A DNA stretch of 64,000 nucleotides, from NCBI GenBank assembly GCA_964016885.1, contig OZ024741.1, forward strand, positions 231,198,001-231,262,000. Reading direction: 5' to 3'. Origin of the DNA: Eledone cirrhosa. Lineage: Eukaryota. A program made the translations under genes and the position numbers. A model generated the notes under the pieces. That model searched no databases, was not told the DNA's origin, and was given only the letters and a program-made list of their open reading frames with translations. Of this stretch, positions 10,617 through 40,567 are shown piece after piece (the stretch's first letter is position 1; the number at the start of each line of letters is the position of its first letter).

Positions 10617-10751
10617 AATACAGCCCGGGAACTTATAAAAATGCATGAAAAAAGAAATGCAATCGTCGAAATAATGACGTCTGCAAACGAGCCACTGGAC
10701 TATGCCCAAATGGATGCCCAGTTGGCGACAGATTGTCCGCTTGTCTAACAC
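10617..10751 (+). pseudogene. Pseudoexon of EGF-like type A module (135 bp)
   Basis: Paralog of 11199-11333. Acceptor CAG mutated to CTG. Reads (E)YSPGTYKNA*KKKCNRRNNDVCKRATGLCPNGCPVGDRLSACLT with an in-frame TGA and three of eight Cys lost. Donor GTTGGT retained. Confidence 0.85.
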
Positions 10752-10892
10752 GTTGGTCAGATTTAGTATCTATTTGGCATGACTGTGCATTGTAAAATCT
10801 ATTCTTCGTAGTTATATATACTAAATTGAGAGAAAATAAAATGTACTAACATTTTCGGTAGTAAACATTTGAAAGAAAGTGATTATAAATAT

Positions 10893-11085
10893 GATTTCTA
10901 GTATAGGGACAAGGCCAGTAATTGGGGGGGGGGGTTCGATTAAATCATCCTCAGTACGTTACTGGTGCTTCATTTTATCGACCCCGTAAGGATGAAAGGC
11001 AAAGTTAAACTCGGTGGGATTTGAACTCAGACTGTAAAGGACTGTAACTGTACAGTGTACAGCATGGTTTCCGTCTCTCTACCGG
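10893..11085 (-). mobile_element. tRNA-derived SINE
   Basis: TCGACCCCGTAAGGATGAAAGGCAAAG..GGGATTTGAACTCAG; same position relative to the exon as the copy at 19125-19340. Confidence 0.75.
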
Positions 11086-11198
11086 TGAGCATTTTATATA
11101 TGATTCAACATACAGCAGTAGTCATGCAATAATTAAAATGTTTGGTATCTTCACATTTAATAATATATTTTTACAGCGTGGATTATTATTTTTTTCAG

Positions 11199-11333
11199 AA
11201 TGCATCCCGGGAACCTATGGCAACGAATGTAAAACGAAATGTAATTGTCTAAATAAAGACGTCTGCGACCGAATCACAGGAGTATGCCCAAATGGATGCC
11301 CAATTGGCTATATACCAGACACTTGTCAAGATG
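11199..11333 (+). CDS. Exon, EGF-like module type A (135 bp, phase 1-1) of a MEGF10/11-like multi-EGF protein
   Basis: TTTTTCAG| acceptor and |GTTAGT donor. (E)CIPGTYGNECKTKCNCLNKDVCDRITGVCPNGCPIGYIPDTCQD, 8 Cys. Confidence 0.9.
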
Positions 11334-11859
11334 GTTAGTAACATTTAGTGTCTCTTTGGCATGATTGTCTGTTGTAAAATCTGTTCTTCGTAGTTATATA
11401 TACTAAATTGAGAGAAAAGAAAATGTACTAACATTTTCGGTTGTAAACCTTTCAAACGAAGTGATTATAAATATGATTTCATGTATAGGCTCAAGACCAG
11501 TTATTTGGCGGGAGTCCATTAAGATTCAGTATAATAATAACATTAGAAAAAGGAAAAAAGAAACGTCAAAGGCAATATCAGGTGTGTGTGTGTAGAATTG
11601 GGTCTCACAGGCTTGGCATAGGGGTATAGCTCGCATATAAAAATGATGTGTATATCAGTTGGTGGTTATAAATTGCCCTTGAACGGGAGAGAGGTGGAAA
11701 AAGTTGGTTCATGGCGGTAGAAGAACTCACTCGGGCGTCACTTATTCACAAATACACGAGGAACGAAATCCACAAATTACCCTACCCCATAGTTCCGTCC
11801 CTTTACGAGTTGGTATTTACCTCAATGATGGACTCTTCAACATGTACAACTGTAGCCGG

Positions 11860-36899: not shown

Positions 36900-38500
36900 A
36901 TATAATTAATGCAGGTAGACAGACTGTTGGTCCTGCTAAGAGCCTAGAGTGATCTTAGAAAGTAAGTAGAGATAGATACAGATAAGTCCAGGAGGAGAGG
37001 ATCCATCTAGAATCCAACGATGTAAAGTTACTTTCCAAATAGTTCCGTTCTCAGATGTAGAGAAGACGCAAAGAAGTCAGCCGCTTTCTTAATTATTTGC
37101 CACTCCCTCAGTGTATCCCAAGTCTCATTCAAATAGAGACTGCAAATGCAGGACCACCTCCGTCTGGGGTTAGATCACGAACCTTTGAGTACGGTGTCTT
37201 ATCTAAATTAATCGACAAGATCAGCTGCGAAGGGATGTGCGTTTTTGTTTATCGATCTCGTTATAGGAGATACGGCAATTGTACCACATGTTCTTTAAGT
37301 TTGTCAACGCAGCTCCTATGTCTCTATACGTCGATTAGGGGTTAGTAACGTTGTCCAGGTAGATTTTTCACCACGTATTTATTTCAAAGCGGAACAGAGT
37401 CAGGGTTTCTGCAGTTGCATAAACTGGTCTACACCAGTGAATCGCCTGTGGGATGTATAACAGGGAAGCCGAAGGGGTCGGTCACAATAACTTGCAGAGA
37501 GACCCCAACGCTGTCATAGTTCGCTTGGGTGGTCACAGGGACAGTGTTAACTGAACCAGGCATAGGTCGATTCAGTCTAGTACTAGCTAGCTCGTGTCCC
37601 AATCAACATATCTTATTATTTTCTGTGTTAGCTATGTTTCGGAATATGCGTGTGGTGGAGTACAAGAGCTTCACCGTGTGCATATTCAACATGTTATGGT
37701 ATCTGAGTCCTCGGAAAGCATTTATCTAGCGCCATAAAGGATAAACTGACGAGGCTACACTGCAGTGCCCCAGATTATACAAGATTATACATATATGTCA
37801 ATTTCTGTTGTTGGGGATTCATGGGGTCTTCTTCGCCTTGAGTATAGTCGTTATCACATCGTATGGTAACACATTCTTGTGCAATCCATACCCCGACTGT
37901 TGGACAGCACTGGTTAGCTCCAGTATGTCTACGCTGAAGTGTTTCATAGCCCGCCCAATTGTGTGTTCTGTGGATGTGATCGCATGGTTTTGGGTGGTTT
38001 GAGGCGTCATCCCTCCAGTCCTGTGTTGAGCATTTATTTAGCGAATGCTGGAAAGCGTTTTTAGTCTCTTTGGTGTTAGACTATCTCTAACTTCTGGATT
38101 CCTGAAGTTTTCGGTAATTACCTGCATCTATTTAAAAGGCTGGTCTCAAAATATTTATTTACTATAGCAAAAAACCCAATATGTATTTCTATGTCCTAGT
38201 TACTTCATTATATCACGAGGAAAGACTTTGTCGGATTCATCAGGGGTGGTTTGCTAAATTTGTTCATCGATAACAGATTTACGACAAATAAAATCAGAGA
38301 ATAGAAAATAGACTTGATTCGGTGATGGCCAACCAATTTGATTTTATTGCCATGAACCAAACAATCTGGAGAGTTCATAAATAACTCCTTGATATATAAG
38401 GTCATATGTAGCCCTGAACGTTAGGATCCATGTTTTGAGGTAGATCCAGTTTCAGCATCTCGCACCGGCTCGGAGCAGTACGTTACTCTAATATTATGGT
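36900..38500 (-). mobile_element. Possible very degenerate retroelement relic
   Basis: GC-richer, coding-like stretch with short minus ORFs; no clean motif recovered. Confidence 0.25.
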
Positions 38501-38718
38501 TAGTGCCTCAGTTTTCCATTACATCACTAATGATTCGACCCCAAGGCGAAAAGAAATCTATTCGGCTAGTGTCTTTTACCAATGGGTAGATCTGGTTATT
38601 CCGGTTAACAACAATTATGTTATGAACTAAAGCACTCGAGCTATGCAAAACATCCACTGTAGACAATTAATACGGATCGTTTTACATGAAAACTAATGGA
38701 CATGCATATTTCTTTCAG

Positions 38719-38853
38719 AATGTAAGCTGGGAACGTATGGTACCTCTTGTAGAGAGAGTTGTAATTGTCGAGATCATAAGGCCTGCAACCGAGTCACTGG
38801 AGTATGCCCATCTGGATGCCCACTTGGCTTTACAACACCCACATGCCAAACAA
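38719..38853 (+). CDS. Exon, EGF-like module type A (135 bp, phase 1-1), older paralog
   Basis: TTTCTTTCAG| and |GTTGGT. (E)CKLGTYGTSCRESCNCRDHKACNRVTGVCPSGCPLGFTTPTCQT. The listed ORF there is in another frame. Confidence 0.9.
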
Positions 38854-40435
38854 GTTGGTAATTTTTTTTATTTCATGTGCTAGCAGAAGTTATAGAAATA
38901 TTTTCTTTATAGTCATGTATTCTAAGAAGATTGATAATAAGGTGTACTAACTCCCGAGGTAACACGCTGTACAAAAAGGGAAATAACCACATGCACTTCA
39001 AATACCAAGACTAACAATACTAACAACGGTACAAAATATTATACTACAAATTTTACTACAAACCCTGCAATAGTGTGCAGTAAGAATAGAGTCAACGACG
39101 TTTACTATCAAGCGGGATAACAGGAAAGTGTTGCGTGGAAGAAAACCTAATAATTTGAAATAATCGTTTTCCATACAAATTTCCATAAATTAAACGTTGT
39201 TTTCTTTTTTTACTTTTTACGAACTTCCAATCATATTCTATTGTAATGCGAGCAAATTTGACCAAACTCAGTGTGAAAGCCCAGCGTTCCGTTAATTGAA
39301 GTATGCGGCCGTTATACAGAGTCTAACAGACTTGATTCTGAATAAGTCTTTTGTTGAATACAGATACTCTGCCGTAATTCAATGAATATATTTACTAGTG
39401 TACATATTTCTCATGAATGAATTTATGAATTTCTGTTGAAGAACAATCCTTATAGATGGTATGTATATTTTGAAAATGCAAAATTAATATTCGGGGGTCA
39501 AAATGCATTAAAACCTTCATCGCTAGGTCAGCGATAGTGGCAGATAGTTACAGAATTGAAAATGAGGACAAAACATTTACCATTACAACTATATGTAAAA
39601 GAAAGCGAAGTGATTGATGAAAAAGAAACAGAAAAATAACAACAAAAAACCAGCGAATTCTACACTGTAAGGACGCGGGAGAGAGAGAGAATTGAGAAAG
39701 ACAAAAGTGGGAGCTACATATATATATCAAACAATAATTTAGAGTGAAATTGGGAGAAGAAAATGGGAAAGAAAGGGGAGTGGGAGTAAGAGGAGGAGAC
39801 GAAGAGGGTGACATATTCGGACGTTAGTTGCAAAATGACCCCAGACAGAGAAATATGCTCATCAACTTCCAAAGATTTTAAAAGAATGCTTATTTATAAA
39901 AACTCCAACACGAATGTACTAATTAGAAGTGAAAAATCGGAAATTTAGCTCCAGTTTTTATAATGACATTCGTTCATTAATTCGTTCTTTATTGCTTCAC
40001 ATTATTGGTGGTGATTAACTTGTGTTTTGTTTTCCTTGCAACGACTAAATCACATGTTATCCTCTCTCTCTCTCTCTCTCTCTCTCTCTCTCTCTCTCTC
40101 TCTCTCTCTCTCTCTCTCTCTCTCTCTCTCTCTCTCTCTCCCTCCCTCTCTGATCCATAAATTGCATGCATATACACGTCTACACAAACAACATCGGATG
40201 TTTATTTTAGATGTTTACATGCTCAACTACTACTTAATATTTCTTCAATTTGGCCCATATCATGCGTTTATACTGTTATACGTGATTCACATAGGATTCC
40301 ACATGAAAATGTGAAGGTATATTTGGTAAGTGCCCATTGTAAGTGTTTTACTGGACAGGTCAACTGTAATATTGTGTCACTGATGCATAAAAGGCAATTG
40401 AAAACTCTAGTTTAAAACATACTTCTCTTTTGCAG

Positions 40436-40567
40436 AATGCAGTAACGGTACGTTTGGATTAGAATGTAGCAGCACTTGTCATTGCATTGATGATATGTGT
40501 GATTATATAAGTGGTTACTGTGCTAATGGTTGTAACTTTCGATATTTTGATGCTTCCTGCCAAAAGA
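40436..40567 (+). CDS. Exon, EGF-like module type B (132 bp, phase 1-1)
   Basis: CTTCTCTTTTGCAG| and |GTGAGT. (K)CSNGTFGLECSSTCHCIDDMCDYISGYCANGCNFRYFDASCQK. Confidence 0.9.

What the first reader, a model, noticed from the sequence alone, without database searches (positions are those of the whole stretch)
10617..40567. Hidden multi-EGF gene built from interchangeable phase-1/1 single-module exons (psiA-A-A-B-C-A-B)
Seen: six intact 132/135-bp exons with canonical AG/GT, identical phase and 8 Cys each. They splice into one open frame (junction residues E, E, L, E, K) and fall into three sequence types that recur in order. Established: the C.PG.YG..C...C.C....C...TG.C..GC..GY....C pattern is typical of MEGF10/11, CED-1/Draper, PEAR1 and SREC-type receptors. 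Inference: the ectodomain grows by duplication of an A-B-C unit plus extra A duplications. Because the exons are symmetric, any subset could be skipped in frame, giving a potentially combinatorial, length-variable recognition receptor.
Basis: partly seen in the sequence, partly recalled or inferred. Interest (0 to 1): 0.75.

Follow-up and report, generated by a model that had tools for sequence, protein, structure and literature searches.

The report
Giant octopod lectin-EGF receptor, dead phosphatase
The six exons are real and lie in the middle of a likely single, roughly one-million-base gene of a probable octopod, predicted to encode a cell-surface receptor with a lectin-like tip, a stalk of 36 repeated cysteine-rich modules and a likely dead phosphatase tail, of a kind already linked to parasite resistance in snails; the exons are likely joined in series rather than freely shuffled.

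Summary
Observation confirmed: six intact AG/GT, phase-1/1, 8-Cys exons plus one dead copy. They are 6 of 36 intact stalk exons in a gene spanning about 990 kb, likely from an octopod. The order is F-type-lectin/galactose-binding domain, stalk, transmembrane exon, tandem PTP-like domains. Forty exons splice in silico to 1,868 aa without a stop. This is the molluscan MEGF/GBD receptor-PTP architecture (Biomphalaria SudRes1, LG5R), not MEGF10/Draper.

The A-B-C unit is real and old: it is shared with Octopus species and a paralog. Younger layers sit on it, including a 12-copy 258-bp array. "Any subset can be skipped" is false: one B exon gives TAA with most downstream partners. Cysteines are fully conserved; other residues change fast, significantly only in some module types.

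Unusual features: the PTP-like D1 lacks the CX5R arginine and the WPD loop, and carries a ten-fold, frame-keeping two-exon repeat (326 aa, acidic). Not shown: any splicing, expression, ligand, or the exon joining membrane anchor to tail. This scan noted other exons of this gene, and neighbouring paralogs, before from other windows.

The parts
10617..10751 (+). Dead A-type EGF-like exon (psiA): acceptor lost, in-frame TGA, 5 of 8 Cys left
11199..11333 (+). A-type 8-Cys module exon, 135 nt, phase 1/1; forms an A'-A doublet with psiA that is 82% identical over 879 bp to the doublet heading the 258-bp array upstream
18849..18983 (+). A-type module exon, 135 nt, phase 1/1; first member of an A-B-C triad
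22518..22649 (+). B-type module exon, 132 nt, phase 1/1; ends in T, so joining it to an AA-starting exon gives TAA
26499..26633 (+). C-type module exon, 135 nt, phase 1/1
38719..38853 (+). A-type module exon, 135 nt, phase 1/1; matched by position to the first A of the paralog at C2:232.89 Mb
40436..40567 (+). B-type module exon, 132 nt, phase 1/1; 83.9% identical with flanks (441 bp) to the first B of the paralog
1..64000 (+). The whole window (G000:C2:231,198,001-231,262,000) lies inside the gene. Parts outside it, in C2 coordinates: N-terminal and pre-lectin exons 230,813,815-230,886,731; lectin-domain exons 230,894,983-230,895,754; nine X exons 230,980,413-231,008,860; A, C, A', A x12, C, A', A 231,073,453-231,143,861 (258-bp array 231,112,966-231,115,938); C, A, B, C, D 231,285,454-231,416,071; TM exon 231,422,269-231,422,359; juxtamembrane and PTP-like exons 231,425,289-231,802,582, with the ten-fold two-exon unit at 231,646,943-231,729,204

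Best explanation
The exons are part of the repeat stalk of a likely single, roughly 990-kb gene predicted to encode a molluscan lectin-EGF receptor-type phosphatase whose modules are likely spliced mostly in series and whose phosphatase is predicted to be dead. Shown in the DNA: order and phase of the exons, an open in-silico frame from the lectin domain to the membrane anchor, three ages of duplication, full retention of cysteines, loss of the catalytic motifs, and a ten-fold in-frame repeat inside D1. Inferred: unequal crossing-over between copies lengthens and shortens the stalk, which survives because each module is one symmetric exon. The stalk would hold the lectin-like tip away from the membrane and may itself contact ligands, since non-Cys residues change fast. 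With no working phosphatase the protein would act as a non-catalytic partner or decoy beside catalytically better preserved paralogs in the same cluster, probably in non-self recognition. Diversity would come mainly from germline copy number, paralogs and amino-acid change, with at most limited exon skipping.
For: 40 exons from the pre-lectin EGF exon to the TM exon give 1,868 aa with 0 stops; 27 cytoplasmic exons give 609 aa with 0 stops; 4 D2 exons give 183 aa with 0 stops. A paralog 1.6 Mb downstream has the same order lectin-X-A-B-C-A-B-C-TM-PTP with homologous introns. No other lectin exon was found between this gene's lectin exon and the end of D2. Closest proteins are Octopus models with serial X-A-B-C; A and B modules of three Octopus species group with ours (96/85 and 99/99). 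48 of 48 Cys pairs are kept against the paralog, whereas neutral simulation loses 12 on average and at least 5 in all 200 runs. 129 nonsynonymous differences in 262 codons exceed all 200 neutral runs at the intron distance (mean 67, maximum 94). Codon models give omega 2.26 for X modules (p 0.008) and 1.77 for non-Cys A codons (p 0.011). Same architecture, clustering and EGF-domain loss between haplotypes are described for Biomphalaria SudRes1 (PMC12297450, section 8), and the same architecture for LG5R subgroup 1C (PMC13712769, section 20).
Against: No transcript was examined, so serial splicing is inferred. The phase-2/1 exon needed to join the TM exon to the juxtamembrane exon was not found, nor the signal-peptide exon or the D1-D2 linker with certainty. 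Two assembly gaps lie inside the span. Selection evidence is mixed: whole A modules omega 1.40 (p 0.12), B 0.54 (p 0.029, below 1), C 0.74 (p 0.15) (nine uncorrected tests; dropping invariant Cys columns inflates omega; conversion between copies breaks the model). The counting method gives 1.24 under neutrality, and at an assumed distance of 0.25 without Cys constraint the neutral mean (126) matches the observed 129. PTP-like exons show a similar amino-acid excess (1.96), which fits relaxed constraint too. An immune role rests on analogy with snails only.
Confidence: 0.6

Rival explanations
1. The ectodomain and membrane anchor are expressed with a short tail, and the PTP-like exons are a separate or decaying remnant that is not spliced on (a scavenger-receptor-F-like, LG5R subgroup 1B type protein).
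For: No phase-2/1 exon linking TM to the juxtamembrane exon was identified; a conserved acceptor 200 nt downstream gives a stop after five codons in both this gene and the paralog. An assembly gap lies in the tail. The O. bimaculoides model ends about 40 residues after the TM. Most LG5R genes have short tails (PMC13712769).
Against: 27 plus 4 tail exons keep AG/GT ends and an open frame over about 380 kb; the juxtamembrane exon lies 3 kb after the TM exon, before the gap, and is collinear with the paralog.
Confidence: 0.15
2. The arrays are a near-neutral by-product: a duplication-prone genome copies exon+intron blocks, symmetric ones are tolerated, and the gene is under relaxed constraint or decaying.
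For: Three of 39 stalk exons are dead; catalytic motifs are lost; amino-acid excess also appears in the tail; one search scored 150 of 1,270 candidate look-alike exons genome-wide; C modules are indistinguishable from omega 1.
Against: 48 of 48 Cys kept against the paralog, 288 Cys in 36 intact modules; nonsynonymous change is about twice the intron distance (dN 0.26 against 0.123); X modules have omega above 1.
Confidence: 0.13
3. The symmetric exons are a splicing-based diversity generator, giving many length or sequence isoforms per animal.
For: 625 of 630 downstream joins among the 36 intact exons are open. Public isoform models of relatives differ by whole modules: Haliotis rufescens X1/X3 by two, H. 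rubra X1/X2 by one, Argopecten irradians X1/X3 by two; 3 of the 6 pairs compared were of this kind, a fourth (cuttlefish, two modules) may be two genes, and two differed elsewhere.
Against: Phase 1/1 symmetry is shared by all these exons, including the lectin exons, so it is the precondition for duplication and no sign of regulated choice. Eight of the 12 copies in the 258-bp array have identical exons, so choosing among them adds no sequence diversity. B at 22518 cannot be joined to 5 downstream exons. Octopus models list the modules in series.
Confidence: 0.1
4. The gene is a MEGF10/Draper/CED-1 engulfment receptor, as database names of its relatives suggest.
For: Closest proteins are named 'multiple epidermal growth factor-like domains protein 6/10'; the module profile matches SCARF1 best among solved structures (E 4e-13).
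Against: No EMI hit in the two N-terminal exons located or in two Octopus relatives; no NPxY or ITAM in 792 aa of tail; lectin and PTP-like domains present.
Confidence: 0.02

Closest known systems
Molluscan MEGF/galactose-binding-domain receptor-like PTPs: Biomphalaria sudanica SudRes1 (PMC12297450; abstract, section 8 and passages read) and B. glabrata LG5R subgroup 1C (PMC13712769; abstract and section 20 read)
   Same: Lectin-like domain, multiple EGF-like repeats, single TM, tandem PTP-like domains; clustered paralogs; EGF-domain gain and loss.
   Different: 36 intact stalk modules over a gene of about 990 kb; D1 lacks CX5R Arg and WPD and holds a ten-fold two-exon repeat. The passages read do not describe such a dead, repeat-filled D1; supplements were not read.
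Octopus gene models XP_014769031 (O. bimaculoides), XP_029645473 and XP_036365299 (O. sinensis), CAI9733321 (O. vulgaris)
   Same: Related N-terminal region, lectin domain and X-A-B-C(-D)-TM order, in the parts that each model holds; best modules 50-63% identical.
   Different: Only 2 to 7 stalk modules in those models against 36 here; none of these four models includes a PTP, and some look truncated or mis-spliced.
SCARF1/SREC-I, Tie2 EGF region, MEGF10/Draper/CED-1 (PMC8092387 passages)
   Same: Related 8-Cys EGF-like repeats in a single-pass receptor.
   Different: No EMI, NPxY or ITAM found; lectin tip and PTP-like tail instead; modules two residues longer before the GC motif than SCARF1.
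Receptor pseudophosphatases such as PTPRU (PMC7959691 passages)
   Same: Receptor PTP predicted inactive through changed catalytic motifs; may compete with active paralogs.
   Different: Unrelated ectodomain; here the domain is also interrupted by a 326-aa exon-encoded repeat.
Exon-level coding tandem arrays such as LPA kringle IV-2 (recalled; named in earlier scan notes, not checked here)
   Same: Near-identical exon+intron units repeated head to tail inside one gene.
   Different: Several arrays of different age in one gene, one of them cytoplasmic.

Membership tests
Molluscan MEGF/GBD receptor-like PTP (SudRes1, LG5R 1C) | Extracellular galactose-binding/fucolectin-like domain | tested here: met
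   First lectin exon scores 28.9 bits on PF22633 (cut-off 27.8); a model of the O. sinensis relative matches F-type lectin folds.
Molluscan MEGF/GBD receptor-like PTP (SudRes1, LG5R 1C) | Multiple EGF-like/Tie2-like repeats | tested here: met
   36 intact 8-Cys modules; profile hits SCARF1 and Tie2 chains. Single modules stay below Pfam cut-offs (5 of 6 had weak EGF-type hits).
Molluscan MEGF/GBD receptor-like PTP (SudRes1, LG5R 1C) | Single transmembrane helix | tested here: met
   Hydrophobic 91-nt exon 6 kb after the last module, in frame.
Molluscan MEGF/GBD receptor-like PTP (SudRes1, LG5R 1C) | Tandem PTP-like domains on the same transcript | tested here: inconclusive
   D1 and D2 exons are present in order and in frame (4 of 6 exons scanned hit PF00102 weakly), but the exon linking TM to tail was not found and no RNA was seen.
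Molluscan MEGF/GBD receptor-like PTP (SudRes1, LG5R 1C) | Signal peptide | tested here: inconclusive
   The first exon was not located; the O. bimaculoides relative starts with a hydrophobic N-terminus.
Molluscan MEGF/GBD receptor-like PTP (SudRes1, LG5R 1C) | Cluster of paralogs | tested here: met
   Nine lectin-exon loci between C2:230.43 and 233.10 Mb, two of them broken; 40 of 45 candidates genome-wide passed.
Active classical PTP | HC(X5)R catalytic motif in D1 (PMC7959691) | tested here: not met
   P-loop reads QCSVGVGE, with Glu for Arg; the paralog keeps HCSVGAGR.
Active classical PTP | WPD loop and phosphotyrosine-recognition loop (motif letters taken from relatives and from recall) | tested here: not met
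   No WPD/WPE in either domain; the KNRY position is replaced. Enzyme activity itself is not testable here.
MEGF10/Draper/CED-1 | N-terminal EMI domain (PMC8092387) | tested here: not met
   No EMI hit at E up to 0.5 in the two N-terminal exons located or in two Octopus relatives; some N-terminal exons of this gene were not located.
MEGF10/Draper/CED-1 | Cytoplasmic NPxY and ITAM/YxxL signalling motifs | tested here: not met
   No NPxY and no ITAM in 609 + 183 aa; four isolated YxxL/I.
F-type lectin | Fucose-binding His/Arg/Arg motif (recalled, from no call) | tested here: inconclusive
   The His seen in O. vulgaris CAI9733298 is absent and the second Arg appears replaced; the motif definition was not checked in a paper, and binding was not tested.
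Dscam-type mutually exclusive exon arrays | One exon of an array chosen per transcript | not testable with these tools
   No RNA run was available; docking/selector elements were not searched.

The most novel reading that the evidence does not exclude
An octopod recognition cluster holds a megabase decoy receptor that has expanded frame-keeping exon modules on both sides of the membrane: a 36-module stalk under diversifying selection whose length varies between alleles and by exon skipping, and a former phosphatase domain converted by ten copies of a two-exon unit into an acidic docking region, working as the non-catalytic member of a paired-receptor system.
Probability: 0.2. Interest if true: 0.7.

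Novelty: new variant of a known kind. Interest (0 to 1): 0.43.

Why it matters
The lectin-EGF receptor phosphatases are tied by mapping to parasite resistance in a mollusc, and EGF-domain loss differs between resistant and susceptible snail haplotypes (PMC12297450). This locus shows, exon by exon, how such stalks grow and shrink, and gives a cephalopod member that gene predictors probably truncate. A dead, repeat-filled phosphatase next to paralogs with a better preserved active site makes a paired-receptor or decoy model testable. The six exons in the window, taken alone, are ordinary for molluscan multi-EGF genes.

Tried and rejected
RNA: no RNA holder listed. The three runs found behave as genomic DNA of one sample and study (introns covered evenly, no exon-exon joints among those shown in two stretches), so they say nothing on splicing and may be the assembly's own source. 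In one search the second haplotype showed about a dozen intronic substitutions and 3 indels, none in the two exons; too few sites to use. A word-based protein search with one exon found nothing; the HMM search worked. A first scan for TM and PTP exons with distant profiles missed them; they were found with closer proteins and the paralog. I first read the ten 74-nt cytoplasmic exons as mutually exclusive because they are asymmetric; rejected when a 25/22-nt partner exon was found in each unit. Counting-method omega above 1 was not accepted by itself, since neutral simulation gives 1.24. Fixed-omega values are invalid and were redone. The tree leaves C and D modules unresolved (44 columns), so the C type rests on position and flanking DNA. 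The structure model is of the O. sinensis relative, not of this protein (pLDDT 80.4, pTM 0.46). Literature searches for a cephalopod or wider mollusc description found no paper or only unrelated listings; the library is incomplete and supplements were not read, so absence from print is not shown. The species was not determined.
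Full report
Observation. They join to 267 residues without a stop, with junction residues E, E, L, E, K. The copy at 10617-10751 is dead: acceptor lost, in-frame TGA, five cysteines. The pattern occurs 6 times on the + strand, never on the - strand and never in 30 random sequences of the same dinucleotide make-up. The rest of the window is microsatellites and fragments that look like non-LTR retrotransposons.

Setting. The window is C2:231,198,001-231,262,000 of a 3.0-Gb genome; one module used as query gave 1,270 candidates, of which 150 were scored and passed. 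The closest proteins are mostly Octopus models, 43-63% identical per module, so the animal is likely an octopod; I did not determine the species.

The whole gene. I read 1,064 kb including the window and 200 kb of a paralog. All parts lie on the + strand in this order (C2 coordinates): two N-terminal exons (230,813,815; 230,873,626) and one EGF-like exon (230,886,588); two lectin-domain exons (230,894,983-230,895,754); nine 144-nt X exons, 7 intact (230,980,413-231,008,860); A, C, A', A x12, C, A', A (231,073,453-231,143,861); the window's psiA, A, A, B, C, A, B; C, A, B, C, D (231,285,454-231,416,071); a transmembrane exon (231,422,269); a juxtamembrane exon (231,425,289); PTP-like D1 and D2 exons (to 231,802,582). 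The span is about 989 kb. Forty exons from the pre-lectin exon to the TM exon give 1,868 residues with no stop. The lectin exon passes the Pfam cut-off for PF22633, and 4 of 6 tail exons scanned hit PF00102 weakly. No other lectin exon was found inside the span; nine such loci lie between 230.43 and 233.10 Mb. Limits: two 200-N gaps inside the span; the signal-peptide exon, one N-terminal exon, the TM-to-juxtamembrane exon and the D1-D2 linker were not pinned down.

How the stalk grew. Three layers are visible in exon-plus-flank identity. Oldest: A-B-C triads, about 67-71% identical between triads. The last two triads match the paralog at 232.86-233.05 Mb one to one by position, five of the six pairs with 79-88% identity including flanks, so they predate the gene duplication; the A and B types group with modules of O. 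bimaculoides, O. sinensis and O. vulgaris (support 96/85 and 99/99; C and D unresolved). Middle: C and A'-A units at about 81-86%, including the window's psiA-A doublet. Youngest: a 258-bp exon+intron array of 12 exons, 8 with identical exon sequence and 6 of 11 full units identical. Contigs of three DNA-like runs of one sample hold a head-to-tail joint with about this period, so the array is unlikely to be an assembly artefact, though those runs may be the assembly's source.

Interchangeability. Of 630 downstream joins among the 36 intact stalk exons, 5 give a stop, all from the B exon at 22518, which ends in T; 2 of these lie among the 15 joins inside the window. Octopus models carry the modules in series. 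Public isoform models of three mollusc genes differ by one or two whole modules (3 of 6 pairs compared), so some skipping is plausible, but such models can be mapping artefacts in repeats. Nothing here shows a combinatorial system.

Selection. Against the paralog, 48 of 48 cysteine pairs are kept; neutral simulation at the intron distance (0.123 over 9,598 sites) loses 12 on average and at least 5 in 200 runs. The exons have therefore been held as folded protein. Other residues change fast: 129 nonsynonymous differences in 262 codons (dN 0.26, dS 0.175) exceed all 200 neutral runs at distances 0.123 and 0.175, but not at 0.25 without a cysteine constraint (mean 126). Codon models give omega 2.26 for X (p 0.008), 1.40 for A (p 0.12; 1.77 without Cys, p 0.011), 0.54 for B (p 0.029) and 0.74 for C (p 0.15). 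These are nine uncorrected tests on copies that may exchange sequence, and the tail exons show a similar excess by counting. Diversifying selection is likely for X and A modules and unproven for B and C.

The tail. D1 reads QCSVGVGE at the P-loop, without the arginine of the HC(X5)R motif (PMC7959691, passages), and has no WPD. The paralog keeps HCSVGAGR but has WPG; the seven relatives from other molluscs checked, chosen for having the P-loop, mostly keep the other motifs too. D1 is also interrupted by ten tandem copies of a two-exon unit that the paralog has once: 74 nt (phase 1/0) plus 25 or 22 nt (phase 0/1). All 20 exons keep AG/GT, the only length change is 3 nt, and together they give 326 residues, 23% Asp/Glu, although the adjoining intron has a tree length of 0.44 substitutions per site. 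Their omega is 2.27 (p 0.068). The 27-exon chain from the juxtamembrane exon to the end of D1 is open for 609 residues. A dead phosphatase is predicted, not measured.

Mechanism. Most likely (0.6) a single-pass receptor whose serially spliced disulfide modules form a long stalk under a lectin-like tip, lengthened and shortened by unequal crossing-over, with a non-catalytic tail, acting in recognition beside better preserved paralogs. A model of the O. sinensis relative matches F-type lectin folds and netrin/laminin LN-LE fragments. The immune role is an analogy: in Biomphalaria, clustered genes of this architecture lie in schistosome-resistance regions, and in B. sudanica they differ in EGF number between haplotypes (PMC12297450, abstract, section 8 and passages; PMC13712769, abstract and section 20). 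Rivals: short-tailed receptor with an unjoined tail (0.15), near-neutral expansion in a relaxing gene (0.13), splicing-based diversity generator (0.10), true MEGF10/Draper (0.02).

Family. It works like, and by architecture belongs with, the molluscan MEGF/GBD receptor-like PTPs, with the tail-on-same-transcript feature unproven and catalysis not met. It is not a MEGF10/Draper/CED-1 member: no EMI hit, no NPxY or ITAM (defining features from PMC8092387, passages).

Novelty. A new variant of a known kind. Earlier notes of this scan described the X exons of this same gene and neighbouring paralogs; they gave me the two snail papers and the lectin-stalk-TM-tail reading, which I checked on the DNA. 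The lost catalytic motifs and the ten-fold cytoplasmic repeat were not in the lines shown. Five paper searches returned nothing and three returned unrelated listings; supplements of the snail papers, which may describe inactive members, were not read. Interest 0.43.

Noticed in passing
G000:C2:231,646,943-231,729,204 (L059-L060, L081-L087): Ten tandem copies of a two-exon unit (74 nt plus a 25/22-nt microexon) inside the PTP-like D1 of the same gene; all frame-keeping, 326 aa, acidic; the middle units are 3-8 kb long and 96-98% identical.
   Followed up: yes
G000:C2:231,793,077-231,793,245 (L094): The donor used by the paralog at the last D1 exon is mutated (GT to GA); two in-frame alternative donors lie 9 nt upstream and 24 nt downstream.
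   Followed up: partly
G000:C2:231,839,765-231,845,924 (L098-L099): Next family member downstream looks broken: frameshifted lectin exon, second lectin exon and one X exon.
   Followed up: partly
G000:C2:232,865,647-233,047,821 (L101-L119): Paralog with lectin-X-A-B-C-A-B-C-TM-PTP D1; keeps the CX5R motif but has WPG for WPD; no D2 exon match was found up to 233,060,000.
   Followed up: partly
G000:C20 3.5-5.3 Mb, C27 13.1-15.4 Mb, C16, C22, C23: About 27 lectin-domain exons with nearly identical scores, many spaced 100-190 kb apart: likely a large, recent multi-chromosome segmental amplification of another family member.
   Followed up: no
G000:C2:310-315 Mb and C10:25.8-27.3 Mb: Two much larger arrays of related 132/135-nt EGF-like exons, with runs of identical-scoring copies at regular spacing.
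   Followed up: no
G000:C2:257.5-257.6 Mb and 261.7-261.9 Mb: Two near-identical lectin-EGF-PTP genes on the - strand about 4.2 Mb apart; their PTP exons score well on PF00102.
   Followed up: no
G000:C14:9.15-9.16 Mb, C22:17.64 Mb, C10:12.09 Mb: Intronless PTP domains inside long open frames (up to about 1,250 aa), three of them in tandem on C14.
   Followed up: no
window 42311-45091 (-), 50808-53366 (+), 58320-62277: Fragments resembling non-LTR retrotransposon reverse-transcriptase/endonuclease frames in the intron after the last B exon; named by eye from translations, not by a family search.
   Followed up: no
window 34049-34963: Degenerate 67-71-bp tandem repeats in the intron between C and A.
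   Followed up: no
P0024, P0042, P0153: The Octopus public models appear mis-predicted at their ends or inside (retrotransposon-like or intron-like stretches), suggesting these genes are often truncated in annotation.
   Followed up: partly
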